Below, in pieces: positions 8,955 through 12,979 of a stretch of DNA of 64,000 nucleotides (the first letter of the stretch is position 1; the number at the start of each line of letters is the position of its first letter). The notes beneath the pieces were generated by a model, which worked only from the letters and a program-made list of their open reading frames with translations, was not told the origin of the DNA and ran no database searches. The stretch comes from Bacteroidaceae bacterium (GTDB lineage: Bacteria; Bacteroidota; Bacteroidia; Bacteroidales; Marinilabiliaceae): assembly GCA_963618945.1 (NCBI GenBank), contig CAVETY010000007.1, forward strand, positions 4,486 to 68,485, written 5' to 3'. A program made the translations under genes and the position numbers.

Positions 8955-9893
8955 TCAAAGCGTATTGAATAGGGCTTCGGCAGCGGCGATATACTTGTCC
9001 GCATTGTTTGATTTCTTTATGGCCTTCAACTCACGATGATGAGCGTCCGCATCTCTGCAGAAGTACTCCCAATATGGCTTCATATGCTCAGCGACCTGAC
9101 GAGACTCTGTCATCCTGGCCTGAGCATCCAACAGCATCTGGTCATGCAAGGCCTTCAGGGACTTCTTTTCATCAACAGGCTCCAAGCCGCGAAGTTTTCG
9201 GCCAAGGCTCAAATCGGCCAAAAGACCGCGACCAATCATTACGCCCTTGAGGCCCGAGTAGTTCGCCACGAGGCTCTCCACGTCATCAACGGTAAGCAAG
9301 TCACCATTGTAAATGACGGGGTGTGAGCATGCCGAGAAGAACTCAGCAAAAGCCTCGCGGTTACACTCACCGCGGTACTGCTGCTTAGCTATTCTTGCAT
9401 GAATGGTGACATGACGGAGCTTGGTGGCGTTAATCATCTCTATGACATCCTTCCACTGATCGGGGCGGTCATATCCAAGACGCATTTTGAGGCTGAACTC
9501 AACATCCGTCATCTCTGATATACCCTTAAGAACATCTTCCAGTTTTTCGGGGTTGTTCAATAGAGCAGCACCACGATTATGGGCCATTATTGGTGGGAAG
9601 GGGCAACCTACGTTGACGTCAACACGCTTAATGCCTTTACTCAGGACGGGTTCGCACAGACGCTTAACCTCATCTGCTGAACCAGGCAGAATTTGAGGAA
9701 CCAGATTAGGCAACTCATCATCGGCCAAATCCCTCAAATCCTTCTTGCGGAACATGCCTCGCTCAATACGCAAAAAAGGTGTGTAGTAAAAATCAACCCC
9801 AGAGAAGAGACTCGCATGAAGACGACGGAAGGAGACATCTGTCAACCCCTGAAGCGGAGCAAAATGTATCTCATATTTAGGATCAAGCGACAT
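8955..9893 (-). CDS. tRNA-dihydrouridine synthase family protein
   Basis: Dus-like TIM barrel: FAPLQGLTDVSFR, VDVNVGCPFP (catalytic Cys) and VTIHARI. Start moved to ATG 9891-9893, because the track ORF extension runs into the tRNA-Leu gene. Confidence 0.85.
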   Translation of the reverse strand: MSLDPKYEIHFAPLQGLTDVSFRRLHASLFSGVDFYYTPFLRIERGMFRKKDLRDLADDELPNLVPQILPGSADEVKRLCEPVLSKGIKRVDVNVGCPFPPIMAHNRGAALLNNPEKLEDVLKGISEMTDVEFSLKMRLGYDRPDQWKDVIEMINATKLRHVTIHARIAKQQYRGECNREAFAEFFSACSHPVIYNGDLLTVDDVESLVANYSGLKGVMIGRGLLADLSLGRKLRGLEPVDEKKSLKALHDQMLLDAQARMTESRQVAEHMKPYWEYFCRDADAHHRELKAIKKSNNADKYIAAAEALFNTL

Positions 9894-10005
9894 AATGGTA
9901 TGAATTATAGCCACGACCTTACCCCAAGAAAAGATGAGCAGGCATTGGCGGTTAGCAATGTACAAAAGAAAAGGGCGGGGTCTACGTGACCTCGCCCAAT
10001 ATATG

Positions 10006-10089
10006 TGCCCAAGACAGGACTCGAACCTGCACCTCATTGCTGAGACTAGTCCCTGAAACTAGCGCGTCTACCGATTCCGCCACTTGGGC
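10006..10089 (-). tRNA. tRNA-Leu (anticodon CAG), class II with long variable arm
   Basis: The reverse complement GCCCAAGTGGCGGAATCGGTAGACGCGCTAGTTTCAGGGACTAGTCTCAGCAATGAGGTGCAGGTTCGAGTCCTGTCTTGGGCA folds as a cloverleaf. The anticodon loop is TTCAGGG. No CCA is encoded. Confidence 0.9.
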
Positions 10090-10198: not shown

Positions 10199-10954
10199 TT
10201 AGCGATTTTTACGCCCCAATAAAGAGAGCACGCCATTTACGAATGTCAGCGGATGAACAGGATTACCCGGGACGTAGAGGTCGACATGCAGACCATCAAG
10301 GACCGAGCGTCGGAGAGCAGCCGAGCCTGCAAAAATACCGCCCGAAATAGCCTCCGTACCAGCCAAAATAAGAATCTTAGGATCCGGCACAGAGTTATAC
10401 GCCTCAAGAAACGGCTCAGCCATATTCTCTGATATTGGACCGGTGAGGACAATTCCGTCAGCATGCCTTGGTGACGCCACGAAATCTATGCCAAAACGGC
10501 CGATGTCAAAATTGACATTGCCTGTCGCATTTAGTTCCATCTCGCAGCTGCCATCGCCGCCAGCTGAAACCTCCCTCAATTTAAGAGAACGGCCGAAAAG
10601 GCGTCGAACCTCAGAACGAATCTTATCAGGGTCGACCAGCACAGGATTGTTTGAACCAGCCTTCACAATTAGCGCTTCACGGACGTTGGAAGCTATGTGA
10701 TAGTCCTTGGTAAACCTTATCTTGTCGGGAGCCGCAAACATACACTCTCCGCAAAAAGTGCAACGACCGAGGTCGATGGAGAGCGGCGAACTCGTGATGG
10801 CTTCAGTCGGGCACAAGTCAACAAGGGAGGCCTCATCAACTGCGGCATCCGAAATCTCGGGACGACCGCGGAAAACGCCTGGGACATCCGTAGTCGTCAC
10901 ATCAGTTATATATTGCTTGCCCTGATGAAGCCAGATTTTGAAAGAATCAAACAT
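10199..10954 (-). CDS. Hydrogenase-3/complex-I small-subunit-like protein (HycG/NuoB fold) with N-terminal half-ferredoxin; Fe-S ligands mostly lost
   Basis: SPRHADGIVLTGPIS, ISGGIF and DLYVPGNP align to the NuoB/HycG motifs SPRHAD..TG, GxCxxSGGIF and PGCPP. The N-terminus carries CPTEAI ... CTFCGEC. Confidence 0.8.
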   Translation of the reverse strand: MFDSFKIWLHQGKQYITDVTTTDVPGVFRGRPEISDAAVDEASLVDLCPTEAITSSPLSIDLGRCTFCGECMFAAPDKIRFTKDYHIASNVREALIVKAGSNNPVLVDPDKIRSEVRRLFGRSLKLREVSAGGDGSCEMELNATGNVNFDIGRFGIDFVASPRHADGIVLTGPISENMAEPFLEAYNSVPDPKILILAGTEAISGGIFAGSAALRRSVLDGLHVDLYVPGNPVHPLTFVNGVLSLLGRKNR

Positions 10955-10994: not shown

Positions 10995-12485
10995 TTAAAG
11001 GTCATGACCGCAATAGCTCAGGTCAAAGCTCTTGTTGCAAATGGGGAAGTCGGATATGCCATTACCACGCACAGCCATCGCAAGTCCCATCCAATTGTGG
11101 ACAGACGGGTCAACGACCTTGTATAGAGACAATTTGCCGGCGGCATCAGTCTGAGCCACATGGACACAGACTCCACGCCACCCCTCTACTGCGGACAGGC
11201 ACATCTTTCCTGGTTGCAGGGATGAAATTTGCACCTTTTCGCGCAGATCTGACTTAGGTTGCGAAGCTATGAGCCTACGGATGTTATCGATAGACTGGAG
11301 AACCTCCTCATAGCGAACCCTTGCACGCGCATAGACATCGCCAGATTGCTTGACAACAGGCTCAAAGGCCATCTTGCCGTAGAGGAGATACGGGTGTGAC
11401 GCTCGGACATCCCTTGCCACCCCCGACGCCTTGGCTGCCATGCCCTCAAGACCAAGCCTCTGGGCCAACTCTGTGCTTACTACGCCTGTGCGCTCAATTC
11501 GCGACAACACGGACGGCAAATCAAACATCTGGGCAGCCATCTCACGGAAATCAGGCTCAAAGGCCTCGACCGTCTTGAGCCATTCTTCAGCCAACTGGTT
11601 CGTGAAAGCGAAATTGGTGTACCCCGGCCTAATCAGACTCTTCGCAAAACGGCTTCCACACCATTTTTGGAAGAAATTGATCATGGGTGTACGCAGACGA
11701 CCGAAGACCGCATTACCCAACTGGTAAGCGATGTCCGTACAAATGGCCGACAAGTCACCAGTGTGAACAGCGATACGCTCATGCTCAAGAGCAACCGTGC
11801 GATCGAAAGACAACATAGGGTCTACGTCAACACCTGCGAGCGCCTCATACAGCAGAGCGAACGCCGTGGCATGACCTACGACGGTATCACCAGCAATGTT
11901 TTCGGAGACAGTGGCACGCTGCAGCAGCTTCTCCTTCGCCAACATGACATCCTCGACACCGCGATGCTGCCATCCAAGCTGAATCTCAAGATGGTGGATT
12001 TTCTCGCCCTCACAGATAAAGCGGAAATGACCCGGCTCTATGATACCTGCGTGAATTGGGCCGACGCCAACACGGTGAAACTCCTCGCTCTCAACATTGA
12101 AAAACGGATAGTCGTATATGTCTCCGCCTGATTTTCGTCCATGACTGAAACGCAATGGTTTGAGCCATGGATGATTAGAGAAACCGATGCCAGTGGACTC
12201 ATGTATGTCGCGTTCAAAAGCATGGAGTTCCGGGCGTTCGGCAGTCATTGACATGAGCGTGCACCCTTCACTCACTTTCGAGCCATACACCTCTATAGCC
12301 TTAGCGGCGTCATCCGCAATGAAAGCGTAGAGAGCAAGAGAACCGCCTCCAAGAGGCTGAGCAAAATAGGAGAGGCAATGAATCGACTGCGCCCCAAGAC
12401 GCGACAAGACAACCGTGTAGAAGTCAGAATAATCCAACAACTCCACACTCTCGGTGTCGAAAGCCTGCCCGTTTTGAATAATCAT
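10995..12485 (-). CDS. Group-4 [NiFe]-hydrogenase large-subunit-like / NuoC-NuoD-like protein lacking the NiFe cysteine ligands
   Basis: GPIHAGIIEPGHFRF and LEIQLGWQHRGVE match the HycE/EchE/NuoD core, and the N-terminal region is NuoC-like (HAFERDIHESTGIGFSNHP). The CxxC ligand motifs are replaced (IAGDTVVGH; DLSYCGHDL at the C-terminus). Confidence 0.8.
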   Translation of the reverse strand: MIIQNGQAFDTESVELLDYSDFYTVVLSRLGAQSIHCLSYFAQPLGGGSLALYAFIADDAAKAIEVYGSKVSEGCTLMSMTAERPELHAFERDIHESTGIGFSNHPWLKPLRFSHGRKSGGDIYDYPFFNVESEEFHRVGVGPIHAGIIEPGHFRFICEGEKIHHLEIQLGWQHRGVEDVMLAKEKLLQRATVSENIAGDTVVGHATAFALLYEALAGVDVDPMLSFDRTVALEHERIAVHTGDLSAICTDIAYQLGNAVFGRLRTPMINFFQKWCGSRFAKSLIRPGYTNFAFTNQLAEEWLKTVEAFEPDFREMAAQMFDLPSVLSRIERTGVVSTELAQRLGLEGMAAKASGVARDVRASHPYLLYGKMAFEPVVKQSGDVYARARVRYEEVLQSIDNIRRLIASQPKSDLREKVQISSLQPGKMCLSAVEGWRGVCVHVAQTDAAGKLSLYKVVDPSVHNWMGLAMAVRGNGISDFPICNKSFDLSYCGHDL

Positions 12486-12498
12486 TACCGTCAGAGGA

Positions 12499-12732
12499 TC
12501 AGTGATTGCAAACTTTGGTCTTGTCTACAGTGAAGCCAAGTGATTCGGCCGGCATGAACTTTCCCCTTGCCTCAAGGAAGTCAACAAGCTCGGCAGCCGT
12601 CATATCCTCAGCAGAGCAAGTGTAAAAACGCTCATCAGGGCCGAACTTAGAGATTATGGCTTCAACGAGCTCCTGCCTGTTGGCGTAGCTATTACCCTCC
12701 ATCATTTGGAGCACCTCATGACCATGTGTCAT
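12499..12732 (-). CDS. YecH-family (DUF2492-like) small metal-binding protein
   Basis: 77 aa running from MTHGHEVLQMMEG to TKVCNH. It has an N-terminal HxH, a central FYTCSAEDMTAAELVDFL and a C-terminal CxH, as I remember for E. coli YecH-like proteins. Start moved to ATG 12730-12732, because the track extension overlaps tRNA-Asp. Confidence 0.7.
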   Translation of the reverse strand: MTHGHEVLQMMEGNSYANRQELVEAIISKFGPDERFYTCSAEDMTAAELVDFLEARGKFMPAESLGFTVDKTKVCNH

Positions 12733-12753
12733 TACTGTAAAATTATATTTTGG

Positions 12754-12761
12754 CAAAATTA
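12754..12761 (-). promoter_or_regulatory. -7 promoter box (TAATTTTG on minus strand) for the yecH-like/hydrogenase-like operon
   Basis: Exact TAnnTTTG match, 22 nt upstream of the ATG at 12732. It overlaps the T-tract of the tRNA-Asp terminator. Confidence 0.45.
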
Positions 12762-12795
12762 AAAAAGTCGCCCAATAGAAGACTACTGAGCGACT
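12759..12795 (-). terminator. Terminator after the tRNA-Asp pair
   Basis: Stem agtcgc (12766-12771) / gcgact (12790-12795), followed on the minus strand by TTTTTTAATTTT. Confidence 0.45.
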
Positions 12796-12804
12796 AAAAC
12801 TTGT

Positions 12805-12881
12805 TGGCGGTGAGGACGAGGCTCGAACTCGCGACCCCATGCGTGACAGGCATGTATTCTAACCAACTGAACTACCCCACC
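12805..12881 (-). tRNA. tRNA-Asp (anticodon GTC), copy 1, with genomically encoded CCA
   Basis: The reverse complement is GGTGGGGTAGTTCAGTTGGTTAGAATACATGCCTGTCACGCATGGGGTCGCGAGTTCGAGCCTCGTCCTCACCGCCA. The anticodon loop is CTGTCAC. Confidence 0.92.
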
Positions 12882-12979
12882 ATAAGTTTTTTTTCAAGAA
12901 ATAAGCGGTGAGGACGAGGCTCGAACTCGCGACCCCATGCGTGACAGGCATGTATTCTAACCAACTGAACTACCCCACC
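12808..12979 (-). repeat. Tandem direct duplication of the 74-nt tRNA-Asp unit (period 98 nt)
   Basis: Identical 74-nt strings at 12808-12881 and 12906-12979. Confidence 0.9.
12906..12979 (-). tRNA. tRNA-Asp (anticodon GTC), copy 2, no encoded CCA
   Basis: The 74-nt body is identical to copy 1. The 3' flank reads CTTATT instead of CCA. Confidence 0.92.

What the first reader, a model, noticed from the sequence alone, without database searches (positions are those of the whole stretch)
10995..12485. Large subunit: both NiFe-binding CxxC motifs replaced; protein ends exactly where HycE is proteolytically matured
The conserved core (GPIHAGIIEPGHFRF, LEIQLGWQHRG) fixes the alignment. Where HycE-type enzymes have R-x-C-G-x-C-x-x-x-H, this protein reads ENIAGDTVVGH. 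That places Ala198 at 11892-11894 and Thr201 at 11883-11885. The C-terminal D-P-C-x-x-C-x-x-R/H motif reads DLSYCGHDL followed by the stop (10998-11024), so Ser490 and Gly493 occupy the Cys positions and a single out-of-register Cys492 remains. There is no C-terminal extension for an endopeptidase. The surviving C-x-H near the C-terminus (YCGHDL) resembles the C-x-H end of the co-transcribed YecH-like protein (KVCNH).
Basis: seen in the sequence. Interest (0 to 1): 0.6.

Follow-up and report, generated by a model that had tools for sequence, protein, structure and literature searches.

The report
Nickel-free Ehr large subunit, split operon
This gene encodes the hydrogenase-like large subunit of an "Ehr" membrane complex, a named but functionally unsolved relative of hydrogenases and respiratory complex I; lacking the nickel-iron cysteines defines that family, so the finding is real but mostly already known.

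Summary
Alignment to E. coli HycE puts A198/T201 and S490/G493 at the four NiFe cysteine positions, and the protein stops at the column where HycE is cleaved.

This is not a stand-alone oddity. The ORF is EhrL, the large subunit of an Ehr (energy-converting hydrogenase-related) complex. Loss of both CxxC motifs defines that family.

- In 80 related loci from many phyla, including Geobacteraceae, the genes run ehrA-B-C-D-L-S.
- In this genome the operon is split. ehrABCD lies on another contig, and within the genus it is kept or lost together with ehrL.
- The replacement motifs A-G-D-T/S and S-Y-x-G-x-D-L-stop are nearly invariant, so this is not decay.
- C492 (C/S/A) and H494 (H/N/F/V) vary, so the proposed surviving C-x-H site is not supported.
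- YecH sits upstream only in seven closely related genomes, so the adjacency is recent.
- Stopping at the HycE cleavage column is shared with Cys-bearing relatives and with NuoCD.
- In the Bacteroidota clade, EhrS has also lost its proximal and one ferredoxin-type cluster.

The function of Ehr is still unknown.

The parts
10995..12485 (-). ehrL: 496-aa large subunit of an Ehr complex, made of a NuoC-like N-terminal domain plus a HycE/NuoD-like domain with no NiFe ligands
   Evidence: Pfam PF00346 at 1.7e-33. Best solved relative is HycE 7z0s_E. The AF2 model has pLDDT 93.5 and TM 0.90 to HycE. The tree places it with Geobacteraceae EhrL.
11883..11894 (-). A198-G199-D200-T201, which replaces the C-G-x-C of the N-terminal NiFe motif
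   Evidence: Alignments. Conservation over 222 sequences: A/S/C198, G199 in 211, D200 in 208, T/S201 in 201.
10998..11024 (-). D488-L-S490-Y-C492-G493-H494-D-L496, which replaces D-P-C-x-x-C-x-x-R and is followed directly by the stop codon
   Evidence: Alignment. S490, Y491, G493, D495 and L496 are nearly invariant, whereas C492 and H494 vary.
10199..10954 (-). ehrS: 251-aa small subunit, a half-ferredoxin domain fused to a NuoB/HycG-like domain. The proximal-cluster ligands read D134, C137, E201, N231. One [4Fe-4S] Cys set remains (C48, C65, C68, C71).
   Evidence: Pfam PF01058 plus Fer4. Sequence. Comparison of 88 EhrS sequences: 41 read CCCC at the proximal site, and the Bacteroidota clade reads D-C-D-N.
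12499..12732 (-). yecH-like gene (DUF2492 / TIGR03853), 77 aa, ending 13 nt before the ehrL start. It is a lineage-specific neighbour, not a general Ehr component.
   Evidence: Pfam at 2.5e-27 and NCBIfam at 4.2e-27. Found in none of 80 Ehr loci. Adjacent in only 7 genomes of the genus.
12805..12979 (-). Two tandem tRNA-Asp(GTC) genes and a terminator-like hairpin (12766-12795) directly upstream of yecH-ehrLS
   Evidence: ARAGORN, Rfam, terminator scan.
10005..10089 (-). tRNA-Leu(CAG) directly downstream of ehrS. It bounds the three-gene unit.
   Evidence: ARAGORN and Rfam.

Best explanation
The ORF is EhrL, the large subunit of an Ehr (energy-converting / Ech-hydrogenase-related) complex. Ehr complexes descend from group-4 [NiFe]-hydrogenases but have no NiFe site.

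Shown:
- The protein keeps the whole HycE fold, including the fused NuoC-like domain.
- The four Cys positions are occupied by A/T/S/G. The motifs (A/S)-G-D-(T/S) and S-Y-x-G-x-D-L-COOH are under strong purifying selection from Bacteroidota to Geobacteraceae.
- The partner genes ehrA (HyfB-like), ehrB (NuoH/HycD-like), ehrC (HyfE-like) and ehrD (HyfF-like) are in the same genome but on another contig (G000 C3:109614-114631).
- Within the genus those genes are retained or lost together with ehrL.
- EhrA and EhrD keep the canonical TM5 Glu, TM7 Lys and TM12 Glu of ion-translocating antiporter-like subunits.
- In the Bacteroidota clade, EhrS has lost the Cys ligands of the proximal (N2-like) cluster (now D-C-D-N) and of one ferredoxin cluster. 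One cluster is left.

Inferred:
- EhrL and EhrS still dock on EhrB and EhrA/C/D as the peripheral cap of an ion-translocating membrane machine.
- The former NiFe pocket is not a thiolate metal centre. It is now a small polar pocket formed by E150, D200, T201, S490, Y491, D495 and the C-terminal carboxylate. It most likely handles protons, a cation or an unknown small ligand, and passes that event to the membrane arm.
- With only one isolated cluster, this subtype probably does not run a conventional electron wire to the pocket.

I put about 0.9 on the identity as EhrL of a split Ehr complex. I put about 0.3-0.4 on the non-redox ion or proton-coupling mechanism.
For: - Homology and fold.
- Motif correspondence.
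- Conservation of the replacement residues in 222 sequences down to about 30% identity.
- Gene order ehrA-B-C-D-L-S in essentially all of 80 loci, including Geomonas, Geobacter, Pelobacter and Melainabacteria.
- Tree: the query lies in a Bacteroidota clade (SH-aLRT 100) inside a 47-row clade with Geobacteraceae EhrL (99). Cys-bearing relatives are basal, and HycE/HyfG and NuoCD lie outside.
- The own genome has a single PF00346 gene, and its only PF00361 and PF00146 genes form an ehrABCD cluster on contig 3.
- Co-occurrence of EhrL and EhrB in the genus: 30 genomes with both, 5 with neither, 1 with L only (an 81%-complete MAG), 0 with B only.
- Antiporter residues intact.
- No HypD.
- EhrS cluster ligands.
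- Literature defining Ehr by loss of the CxxC motifs, with function unknown: PMC10284858, PMC6349859, PMC4378227, PMC12342949, PMC7894505.
Against: - No experiment shows that EhrLS and EhrABCD assemble when they are encoded at separate loci.
- The proposed role of the polar pocket rests on conservation and on homology to the NiFe and quinone site. It does not rest on a modelled complex or a bound ligand.
- D-C-D-N could in principle bind some other metal, so a redox role is not excluded.
- No Ehr complex from any organism has a demonstrated substrate.
Confidence: 0.85

Rival explanations
1. One reading: a new metal site is built from the surviving out-of-register C492 and H494 (C-x-H). It would be loaded or mirrored by the co-transcribed YecH-like protein, which ends in C-N-H.
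For: C492 and H494 are present here and in all homologues above about 60% identity. yecH ends 13 nt before the ehrL start. The YecH family is annotated as metal-binding.
Against: Position 492 is C/S/A (128/62/25) and position 494 is H/N/F/V/T. Many Bacteroidota orthologues read LSYSGHDL or LSYCGNDL. YecH was found in none of 80 Ehr loci. It is absent from 12 of the 31 EhrL-positive genomes of the genus, and it lies on other contigs in most of those that have it.
Confidence: 0.04
2. EhrL and EhrS act in this lineage as a stand-alone soluble heterodimer, with or without YecH, independent of any membrane arm.
For: In the window the three genes are isolated between tRNA genes, with no membrane subunit nearby. 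The split arrangement is stable across many species of the genus.
Against: ehrABCD is intact in the same genome with its key charged residues. EhrL and EhrB are retained or lost together in 35 of 36 genomes of the genus. Sister species and all other lineages keep one ehrABCDLS operon. EhrB identity tracks EhrL identity across species.
Confidence: 0.08
3. The protein works as a NuoD-like quinone-reducing subunit, that is, a complex-I-type ferredoxin:menaquinone oxidoreductase.
For: It is homologous to NuoD. The complex I quinone site occupies the former NiFe pocket (PMC4758237). EhrB is NuoH-like.
Against: Scores are far below the NuoD equivalog cut-offs, 150 against 360 bits. In the alignment to T. 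thermophilus Nqo4, the quinone-binding Tyr87 position is G199 and the His38 position is I149. EhrS lacks the N2-type cluster that donates electrons to quinone.
Confidence: 0.04
4. The gene is a decaying hydrogenase remnant (pseudogene-like) with no function.
For: All catalytic ligands are lost, and most Fe-S ligands of the partner subunit are lost too.
Against: The 496-aa frame is intact. The motifs are invariant across phyla at 30-55% overall identity. The fold prediction is confident. The gene is retained in 31 of 36 genomes of the genus.
Confidence: 0.01

Closest known systems
Ehr (energy-converting / Ech-hydrogenase-related) complex, ehrABCDLS, first named for Geobacter sulfurreducens (GSU0739-45; Coppi 2005, Marreiros et al. 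2013, as cited in PMC7894505, PMC6349859 and PMC4758237)
   Same: The large subunit lacks both CxxC motifs. The A-G-D-T and S-Y-C-G-x-D-L-stop motifs match those of Geobacteraceae loci at 40-42% identity. The six subunit types are the same. The tree places it in the same clade. Function is unknown in both.
   Different: The operon is split into ehrABCD (another contig) and yecH-ehrLS. The Bacteroidota EhrS has lost the proximal cluster and one ferredoxin cluster, whereas the Geobacteraceae EhrS sequences keep the proximal-cluster Cys set and most or all ferredoxin-domain cysteines. A yecH-like gene has been recruited upstream in a small subclade.
E. coli formate hydrogenlyase hydrogenase-3 / hydrogenase-4 large subunits HycE and HyfG (PDB 7z0s)
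   Same: The fold is the same, including the fused NuoC-like domain (TM 0.90). The GPxHxxxxEPGHFR and HRG motifs are shared. The membrane partners are most similar to HyfB, HyfC, HyfE and HyfF.
   Different: There are no NiFe cysteines. There is no 32-residue C-terminal extension and no HycI-type processing. The genome has no HypD. There is no proximal cluster in the small subunit.
NuoD / Nqo4 / 49-kDa subunit of respiratory complex I
   Same: It is homologous, it lacks NiFe ligands, it ends at the same C-terminal column, and it sits (by inference) on a NuoH-like subunit.
   Different: It lacks the quinone-site Tyr and His, falls below the NuoD family cut-offs, has no N2 cluster partner, and has no nuo operon.
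Mbx/Mbs-type hydrogenase-related complexes of Thermococcales (PDB 6u8y)
   Same: These are group-4-derived complexes whose large subunit no longer binds NiFe and which couple to Mrp-like membrane subunits.
   Different: The sequence match is much weaker (E 1.9e-14 against 1.4e-33 for HycE). Mbs keeps an electron wire to its substrate site, and its subunit set differs.

Membership tests
Ehr complex (EhrL) | The large subunit is homologous to the group-4 [NiFe]-hydrogenase large subunit / NuoD | tested here: met
   PF00346 at 1.7e-33. HycE 7z0s_E at 1.4e-33. Foldseek TM 0.90 to HycE.
Ehr complex (EhrL) | Both NiFe-binding CxxC motifs are absent | tested here: met
   A198/T201 and S490/G493 occupy the Cys columns.
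Ehr complex (EhrL) | It is encoded together with EhrA (NuoL/HyfB-like), EhrB (NuoH-like), EhrC (HyfE-like), EhrD (NuoN/HyfF-like) and EhrS | tested here: met
   All are present in the genome, but ehrABCD lies on contig 3 rather than next to ehrLS. The genes are contiguous as ABCDLS in sister species and in 80 other loci. EhrL and EhrB co-occur in 35 of 36 genomes of the genus.
Ehr complex (EhrL) | It groups phylogenetically with reference EhrL (Geobacteraceae), apart from Cys-bearing hydrogenases and NuoD | tested here: met
   Quick IQ-TREE tree: a 47-row clade with SH-aLRT 99 holds the query plus Geomonas, Geobacter and Pelobacter. Cys-bearing sequences are basal, and HycE/HyfG and NuoCD lie outside. 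No bootstrap was run and G. sulfurreducens itself was not included.
Group 4 [NiFe]-hydrogenase | L1 RxCGxCxxxH and L2 DPCxxCxxH/R motifs with four Cys ligands | tested here: not met
   The motifs read ENIAGDTVVGH and DLSYCGHDL.
Group 4 [NiFe]-hydrogenase | Hyp maturation machinery is present in the genome | tested here: not met
   There is no HypD (PF01924) match in the 98%-complete genome. Other hyp genes were not searched.
Group 4 [NiFe]-hydrogenase | The small subunit carries a proximal [4Fe-4S] cluster | tested here: not met
   The ligand columns read D134, C137, E201, N231.
NuoD (complex I 49-kDa subunit) | The score is above the NuoD equivalog cut-off | tested here: not met
   NF004739 scores 150 bits against a cut-off of 360. 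TIGR01962 scores 121 against 459.
NuoD (complex I 49-kDa subunit) | Quinone-site Tyr87 and His38 (T. thermophilus Nqo4 numbering) | tested here: not met
   In the HMMER alignment to 2fug_4, Tyr87 aligns with G199 and His38 with I149. The loop alignment around His38 is less certain.
   YecH was found in 0 of 80 Ehr loci. It is adjacent in only 7 genomes of the genus. C492 and H494 vary.

The most novel reading that the evidence does not exclude
The Bacteroidota Ehr subtype, this gene included, may be a complex-I-like machine that works without any electron wire. In this reading the former NiFe pocket of EhrL (E150, D200, T201, S490, Y491, D495 and the C-terminal carboxylate) has become a conserved ion-, proton- or small-ligand-binding site. 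That site would gate an Mrp-like ion-translocating membrane arm. The single remaining [4Fe-4S] cluster of EhrS would be structural or a redox sensor. The split into two co-inherited loci would show that the cap and the membrane arm can be expressed separately.
Probability: 0.3. Interest if true: 0.7.

Novelty: new member of a known kind. Interest (0 to 1): 0.3.

Why it matters
Ehr complexes are widespread across many bacterial phyla, and here also among gut and environmental Bacteroidota. They are evolutionary intermediates between hydrogenases and complex I, and as of 2025 they have no known substrate (PMC12342949).

This report adds little to the defining observation. It does document three things:
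- The residues that replace the NiFe ligands form a family-wide, strongly conserved signature, which makes them good mutagenesis targets.
- The C-x-H and YecH lead is a dead end.
- In one Bacteroidales genus the operon has split, yet both halves stay co-inherited. This is natural evidence that the peripheral and membrane modules still depend on each other.

Together with the one-cluster EhrS, this makes a cultivable Bacteroidota species a sensible system for testing what an Ehr complex does.

Tried and rejected
- Two literature searches returned mostly irrelevant hits. The first, for DUF2492/YecH, gave nothing usable; the second still surfaced three relevant Ehr papers.
- Earlier notes of this scan report a fluoride riboswitch in front of Ehr operons in other lineages. 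I tested this with Rfam at gathering threshold on the whole window, on the ehrABCD locus L008, on three same-genus loci and on seven other Bacteroidota loci. Only tRNAs were found, so that clue does not apply here.
- I looked for a consistent partner of YecH in five species where it is not next to ehrL. The ORF lists showed no shared context, and I did not pursue it.
- The sigma-70-type promoter scan of the region gave no more hits than shuffled sequence. Bacteroidota promoters are not covered by that scan.
- Rejected readings: pseudogene decay, a NuoD-type quinone site, and a C492/H494 metal site. Reasons are given under rivals.
- One Python step meant to list ORFs in the split loci printed nothing useful.

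Full report
**1. The observation**

The minus-strand ORF 10995-12485 gives a 496-aa protein. It contains GPIHAGIIEPGHFRF, LEIQLGWQHRG, ENIAGDTVVGH and the C-terminal DLSYCGHDL-stop. Pfam finds the 49-kDa/NuoD domain at 1.7e-33. The best solved relative is E. coli HycE in the formate hydrogenlyase structure 7z0s (E 1.4e-33), followed by MbhL and Nqo4.

The HMMER alignment and a MAFFT alignment with E. coli HycE, HyfG and NuoCD fetched from NC_000913 agree:
- HycE RVCGICGFAH aligns with NIAGDTVVGH.
- HycE DPCYSCTDR aligns with DLSYCGHDL.

A198, T201, S490 and G493 therefore occupy the four Cys columns, and C492 is out of register. HycE and HyfG continue for 32 residues after ...CTDR; by established knowledge HycI removes this peptide. 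The window protein stops at that column.

**2. What the gene is**

A 54%-identical orthologue from Tenuifilaceae lies in a six-gene operon. Its order is antiporter-like (676 aa), NuoH-like (301 aa), a 209-aa membrane protein, antiporter-like (475 aa), large subunit, small subunit.

A scan of one genome per species returned 80 loci from many lineages: Bacteroidota, Spirochaetota, Planctomycetota, Verrucomicrobiota, Melainabacteria, Myxococcota, and Geobacteraceae/Desulfuromonadaceae (Geomonas, Geobacter, Pelobacter). Wherever enough flank is present, tblastn with this genome's proteins finds the order A-B-C-D-L-S.

This is the published layout of Ehr (energy-converting / Ech-hydrogenase-related) complexes, ehrABCDLS. 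The papers define Ehr by the absence of the CxxC NiFe motifs and state that its function is unknown (PMC7894505, PMC10284858, PMC6349859, PMC4378227, PMC12342949, PMC4758237).

A maximum-likelihood tree supports the assignment:
- The query lies in a Bacteroidota clade (SH-aLRT 100).
- That clade sits inside a 47-row clade (99) that contains the Geobacteraceae EhrL sequences.
- Cys-bearing relatives branch below it.
- HycE/HyfG and NuoCD lie outside.

The AlphaFold model built on a 43-sequence alignment is confident (pLDDT 93.5, pTM 0.94). It superposes on HycE with TM 0.90 over about 500 columns, including the NuoC-like N-terminal domain. No closer solved structure exists.

**3. The missing membrane arm is elsewhere in the genome**

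The genome (3.15 Mb, 98% complete) has a single PF00346 gene, which is this one. Its only Proton_antipo_M and NADHdh genes form a four-gene cluster on contig 3 at 109614-114631:
- EhrA: 667 aa, best E. coli match HyfB.
- EhrB: 296 aa, best matches HycD and HyfC.
- EhrC: 211 aa, best match HyfE.
- EhrD: 480 aa, best match HyfF.

EhrA and EhrD keep the TM5 Glu, TM7 Lys and TM12 Glu of ion-translocating antiporter-like subunits.

Within the genus, some species keep ehrABCDLS intact. One species has ehrLS and ehrABCD arranged divergently. A large subclade has them on separate contigs.

Presence and absence are tightly linked. Thirty genomes have both EhrL and EhrB and five have neither. One 81%-complete MAG has EhrL only, and none has EhrB only. 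The uncorrected hypergeometric probability is about 1.6e-5, by my own arithmetic. The two halves therefore still appear to depend on each other. This contradicts the companion reading of a stand-alone three-gene module.

**4. Are the replaced positions conserved?**

Yes. I examined 222 full-length sequences, comprising 120 close homologues and representatives down to about 30% identity:

| Position | Residues (count of 222) |
|---|---|
| 198 | A 151, S 43, C 17 |
| 199 | G 211 |
| 200 | D 208 |
| 201 | T 148, S 53 |
| 205 | H 182 |
| 490 | S 210 |
| 491 | Y 215 |
| 493 | G 213 |
| 495 | D 222 |
| 496 | L 205 |

The refutation condition "simple decay" is therefore not met.
- Position 492 is C 128, S 62, A 25.
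- Position 494 is H 144, N 36, F 12, V 8 and others.

Many Bacteroidota orthologues read LSYSGHDL or LSYCGNDL. A C-x-H metal site is therefore unlikely.

The absence of a C-terminal extension is not specific either. Seven Cys-bearing relatives (ERxCGxC ... LCYxCxDR-stop) and E. coli NuoCD end at the same column. The ancestor of Ehr thus already lacked the extension.

**5. YecH**

The 77-aa DUF2492/TIGR03853 gene (12499-12732) ends 13 nt before the ehrL start. It follows two tRNA-Asp genes and a terminator-like hairpin. Its link to Ehr is weak:
- It was found in none of the 80 Ehr loci.
- In the family, 20 of 133 genomes have a DUF2492 match and 19 pass Pfam's cut-off, all 19 in this genus.
- In the genus, 12 of the 31 EhrL-positive genomes lack YecH.
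- It is adjacent to ehrL only in G000, G127, G122, G126, G124, G096 and G112. These are the genomes whose EhrL is at least 78% identical to the query.
- Elsewhere it lies on other contigs in variable contexts.

The adjacency is a recent juxtaposition that followed the operon split. The resemblance of the two C-x-H ends is best read as coincidence.

**6. The partner subunit and mechanism**

EhrS (10199-10954) is a ferredoxin-like domain fused to a NuoB/HycG-like domain.

Among 88 EhrS sequences, 41 keep all four Cys of the proximal (N2-like) cluster. Nearly all of these are non-Bacteroidota, and most of them also keep both ferredoxin-type clusters.

The Bacteroidota clade reads D-C-D-N at the proximal site, and even the remaining Cys varies. 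It keeps only C48 plus C65, C68 and C71. By analogy with Nqo9, from my own knowledge, that is the middle (N6b-like) cluster.

An isolated middle cluster cannot feed the former NiFe pocket at physiological rates; this is inference. The genome has no HypD. The quinone-site residues of NuoD are not present: Tyr87 aligns with G199 and His38 with I149.

My best mechanistic reading, which is inferred, is that EhrL and EhrS cap an intact ion-translocating membrane arm. The pocket is lined by E150, D200, T201, S490, Y491, D495 and the C-terminal carboxylate. It would handle protons, a cation or a small ligand rather than electrons. I give this about 0.3-0.4. The identity as EhrL I hold at about 0.9.

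**7. Leads from earlier notes**

Earlier notes of this scan independently describe the one-cluster Bacteroidota EhrS and the Cys-less EhrL. My analysis agrees with them.

Other notes report a fluoride riboswitch in front of Ehr operons in other lineages. I searched with Rfam at gathering thresholds in the window, in the ehrABCD locus and in ten further Bacteroidota loci. Only tRNAs were found, so that clue does not extend to this clade.

**8. Verdict**

The finding is real but it rediscovers the defining feature of a named family. What is particular here is modest:
- a split, co-inherited operon;
- a recently recruited yecH neighbour;
- membership of the Bacteroidota subtype with a broken electron wire.

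Novelty: new member of a known kind. Interest: 0.3.

Noticed in passing
window 10005-10089 (-): A tRNA-Leu(CAG) lies between ehrS and the Dus-like gene. The mechanical 360-aa ORF 8955-10037 overlaps it, so the true Dus-like start must be downstream. The Pfam Dus match begins at residue 59 of that ORF.
   Followed up: partly
window 8955-10037 (-): The Dus-family protein scores well below the DusB equivalog cut-off (118 against 293 bits). It stays downstream of ehrS in at least three other split-operon genomes (L120, L121, L138). This is probably synteny only.
   Followed up: no
G000 contig 3:109614-114631 (L008:5615-10632): The ehrABCD cluster of this genome is flanked upstream by an acyltransferase gene and downstream by Sir2-family and short-chain dehydrogenase genes. 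No ehrL or ehrS lies next to it.
   Followed up: yes
L125 (G104:C1:157948-175435): In one species of the genus, ehrLS and ehrABCD are adjacent but divergently oriented. This looks like an intermediate between the intact operon and the split state.
   Followed up: no
L032 (CBRFFM010000013.1): A different rearrangement is seen here. The gene order is ehrL-A-B-C-D-S, with the large subunit moved to the front.
   Followed up: no
L009, L012, L013, L015, L017-L021, L026, L051, L061, L084, L086, L134: There is a gap of about 2 kb between the ehrA and ehrB matches. It suggests an extra gene there, possibly a second antiporter-like subunit as in the seven-gene Geobacter cluster (EhrA-1/EhrA-2).
   Followed up: no
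L134 (G009, same family) and L009 (Prolixibacteraceae MAG): The EhrL of a genome from the window's own family is the very close sister of a Prolixibacteraceae MAG sequence (branch lengths 0.13-0.15). This hints at horizontal transfer of the operon or a taxonomic mislabel.
   Followed up: no
L023 and L048 (Bacteroidota MAGs): Two Bacteroidota EhrS sequences still carry the full proximal-cluster Cys set. L023 also keeps both ferredoxin sets, while L048 keeps only part of the ferredoxin-domain cysteines. The cluster loss therefore happened within the phylum, and both states are available for comparison.
   Followed up: partly
window 12499-12840 (-): The mechanical 113-aa ORF for the yecH-like gene runs into tRNA-Asp. 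The real product is the 77-aa protein starting MTHGHEV at 12732.
   Followed up: yes
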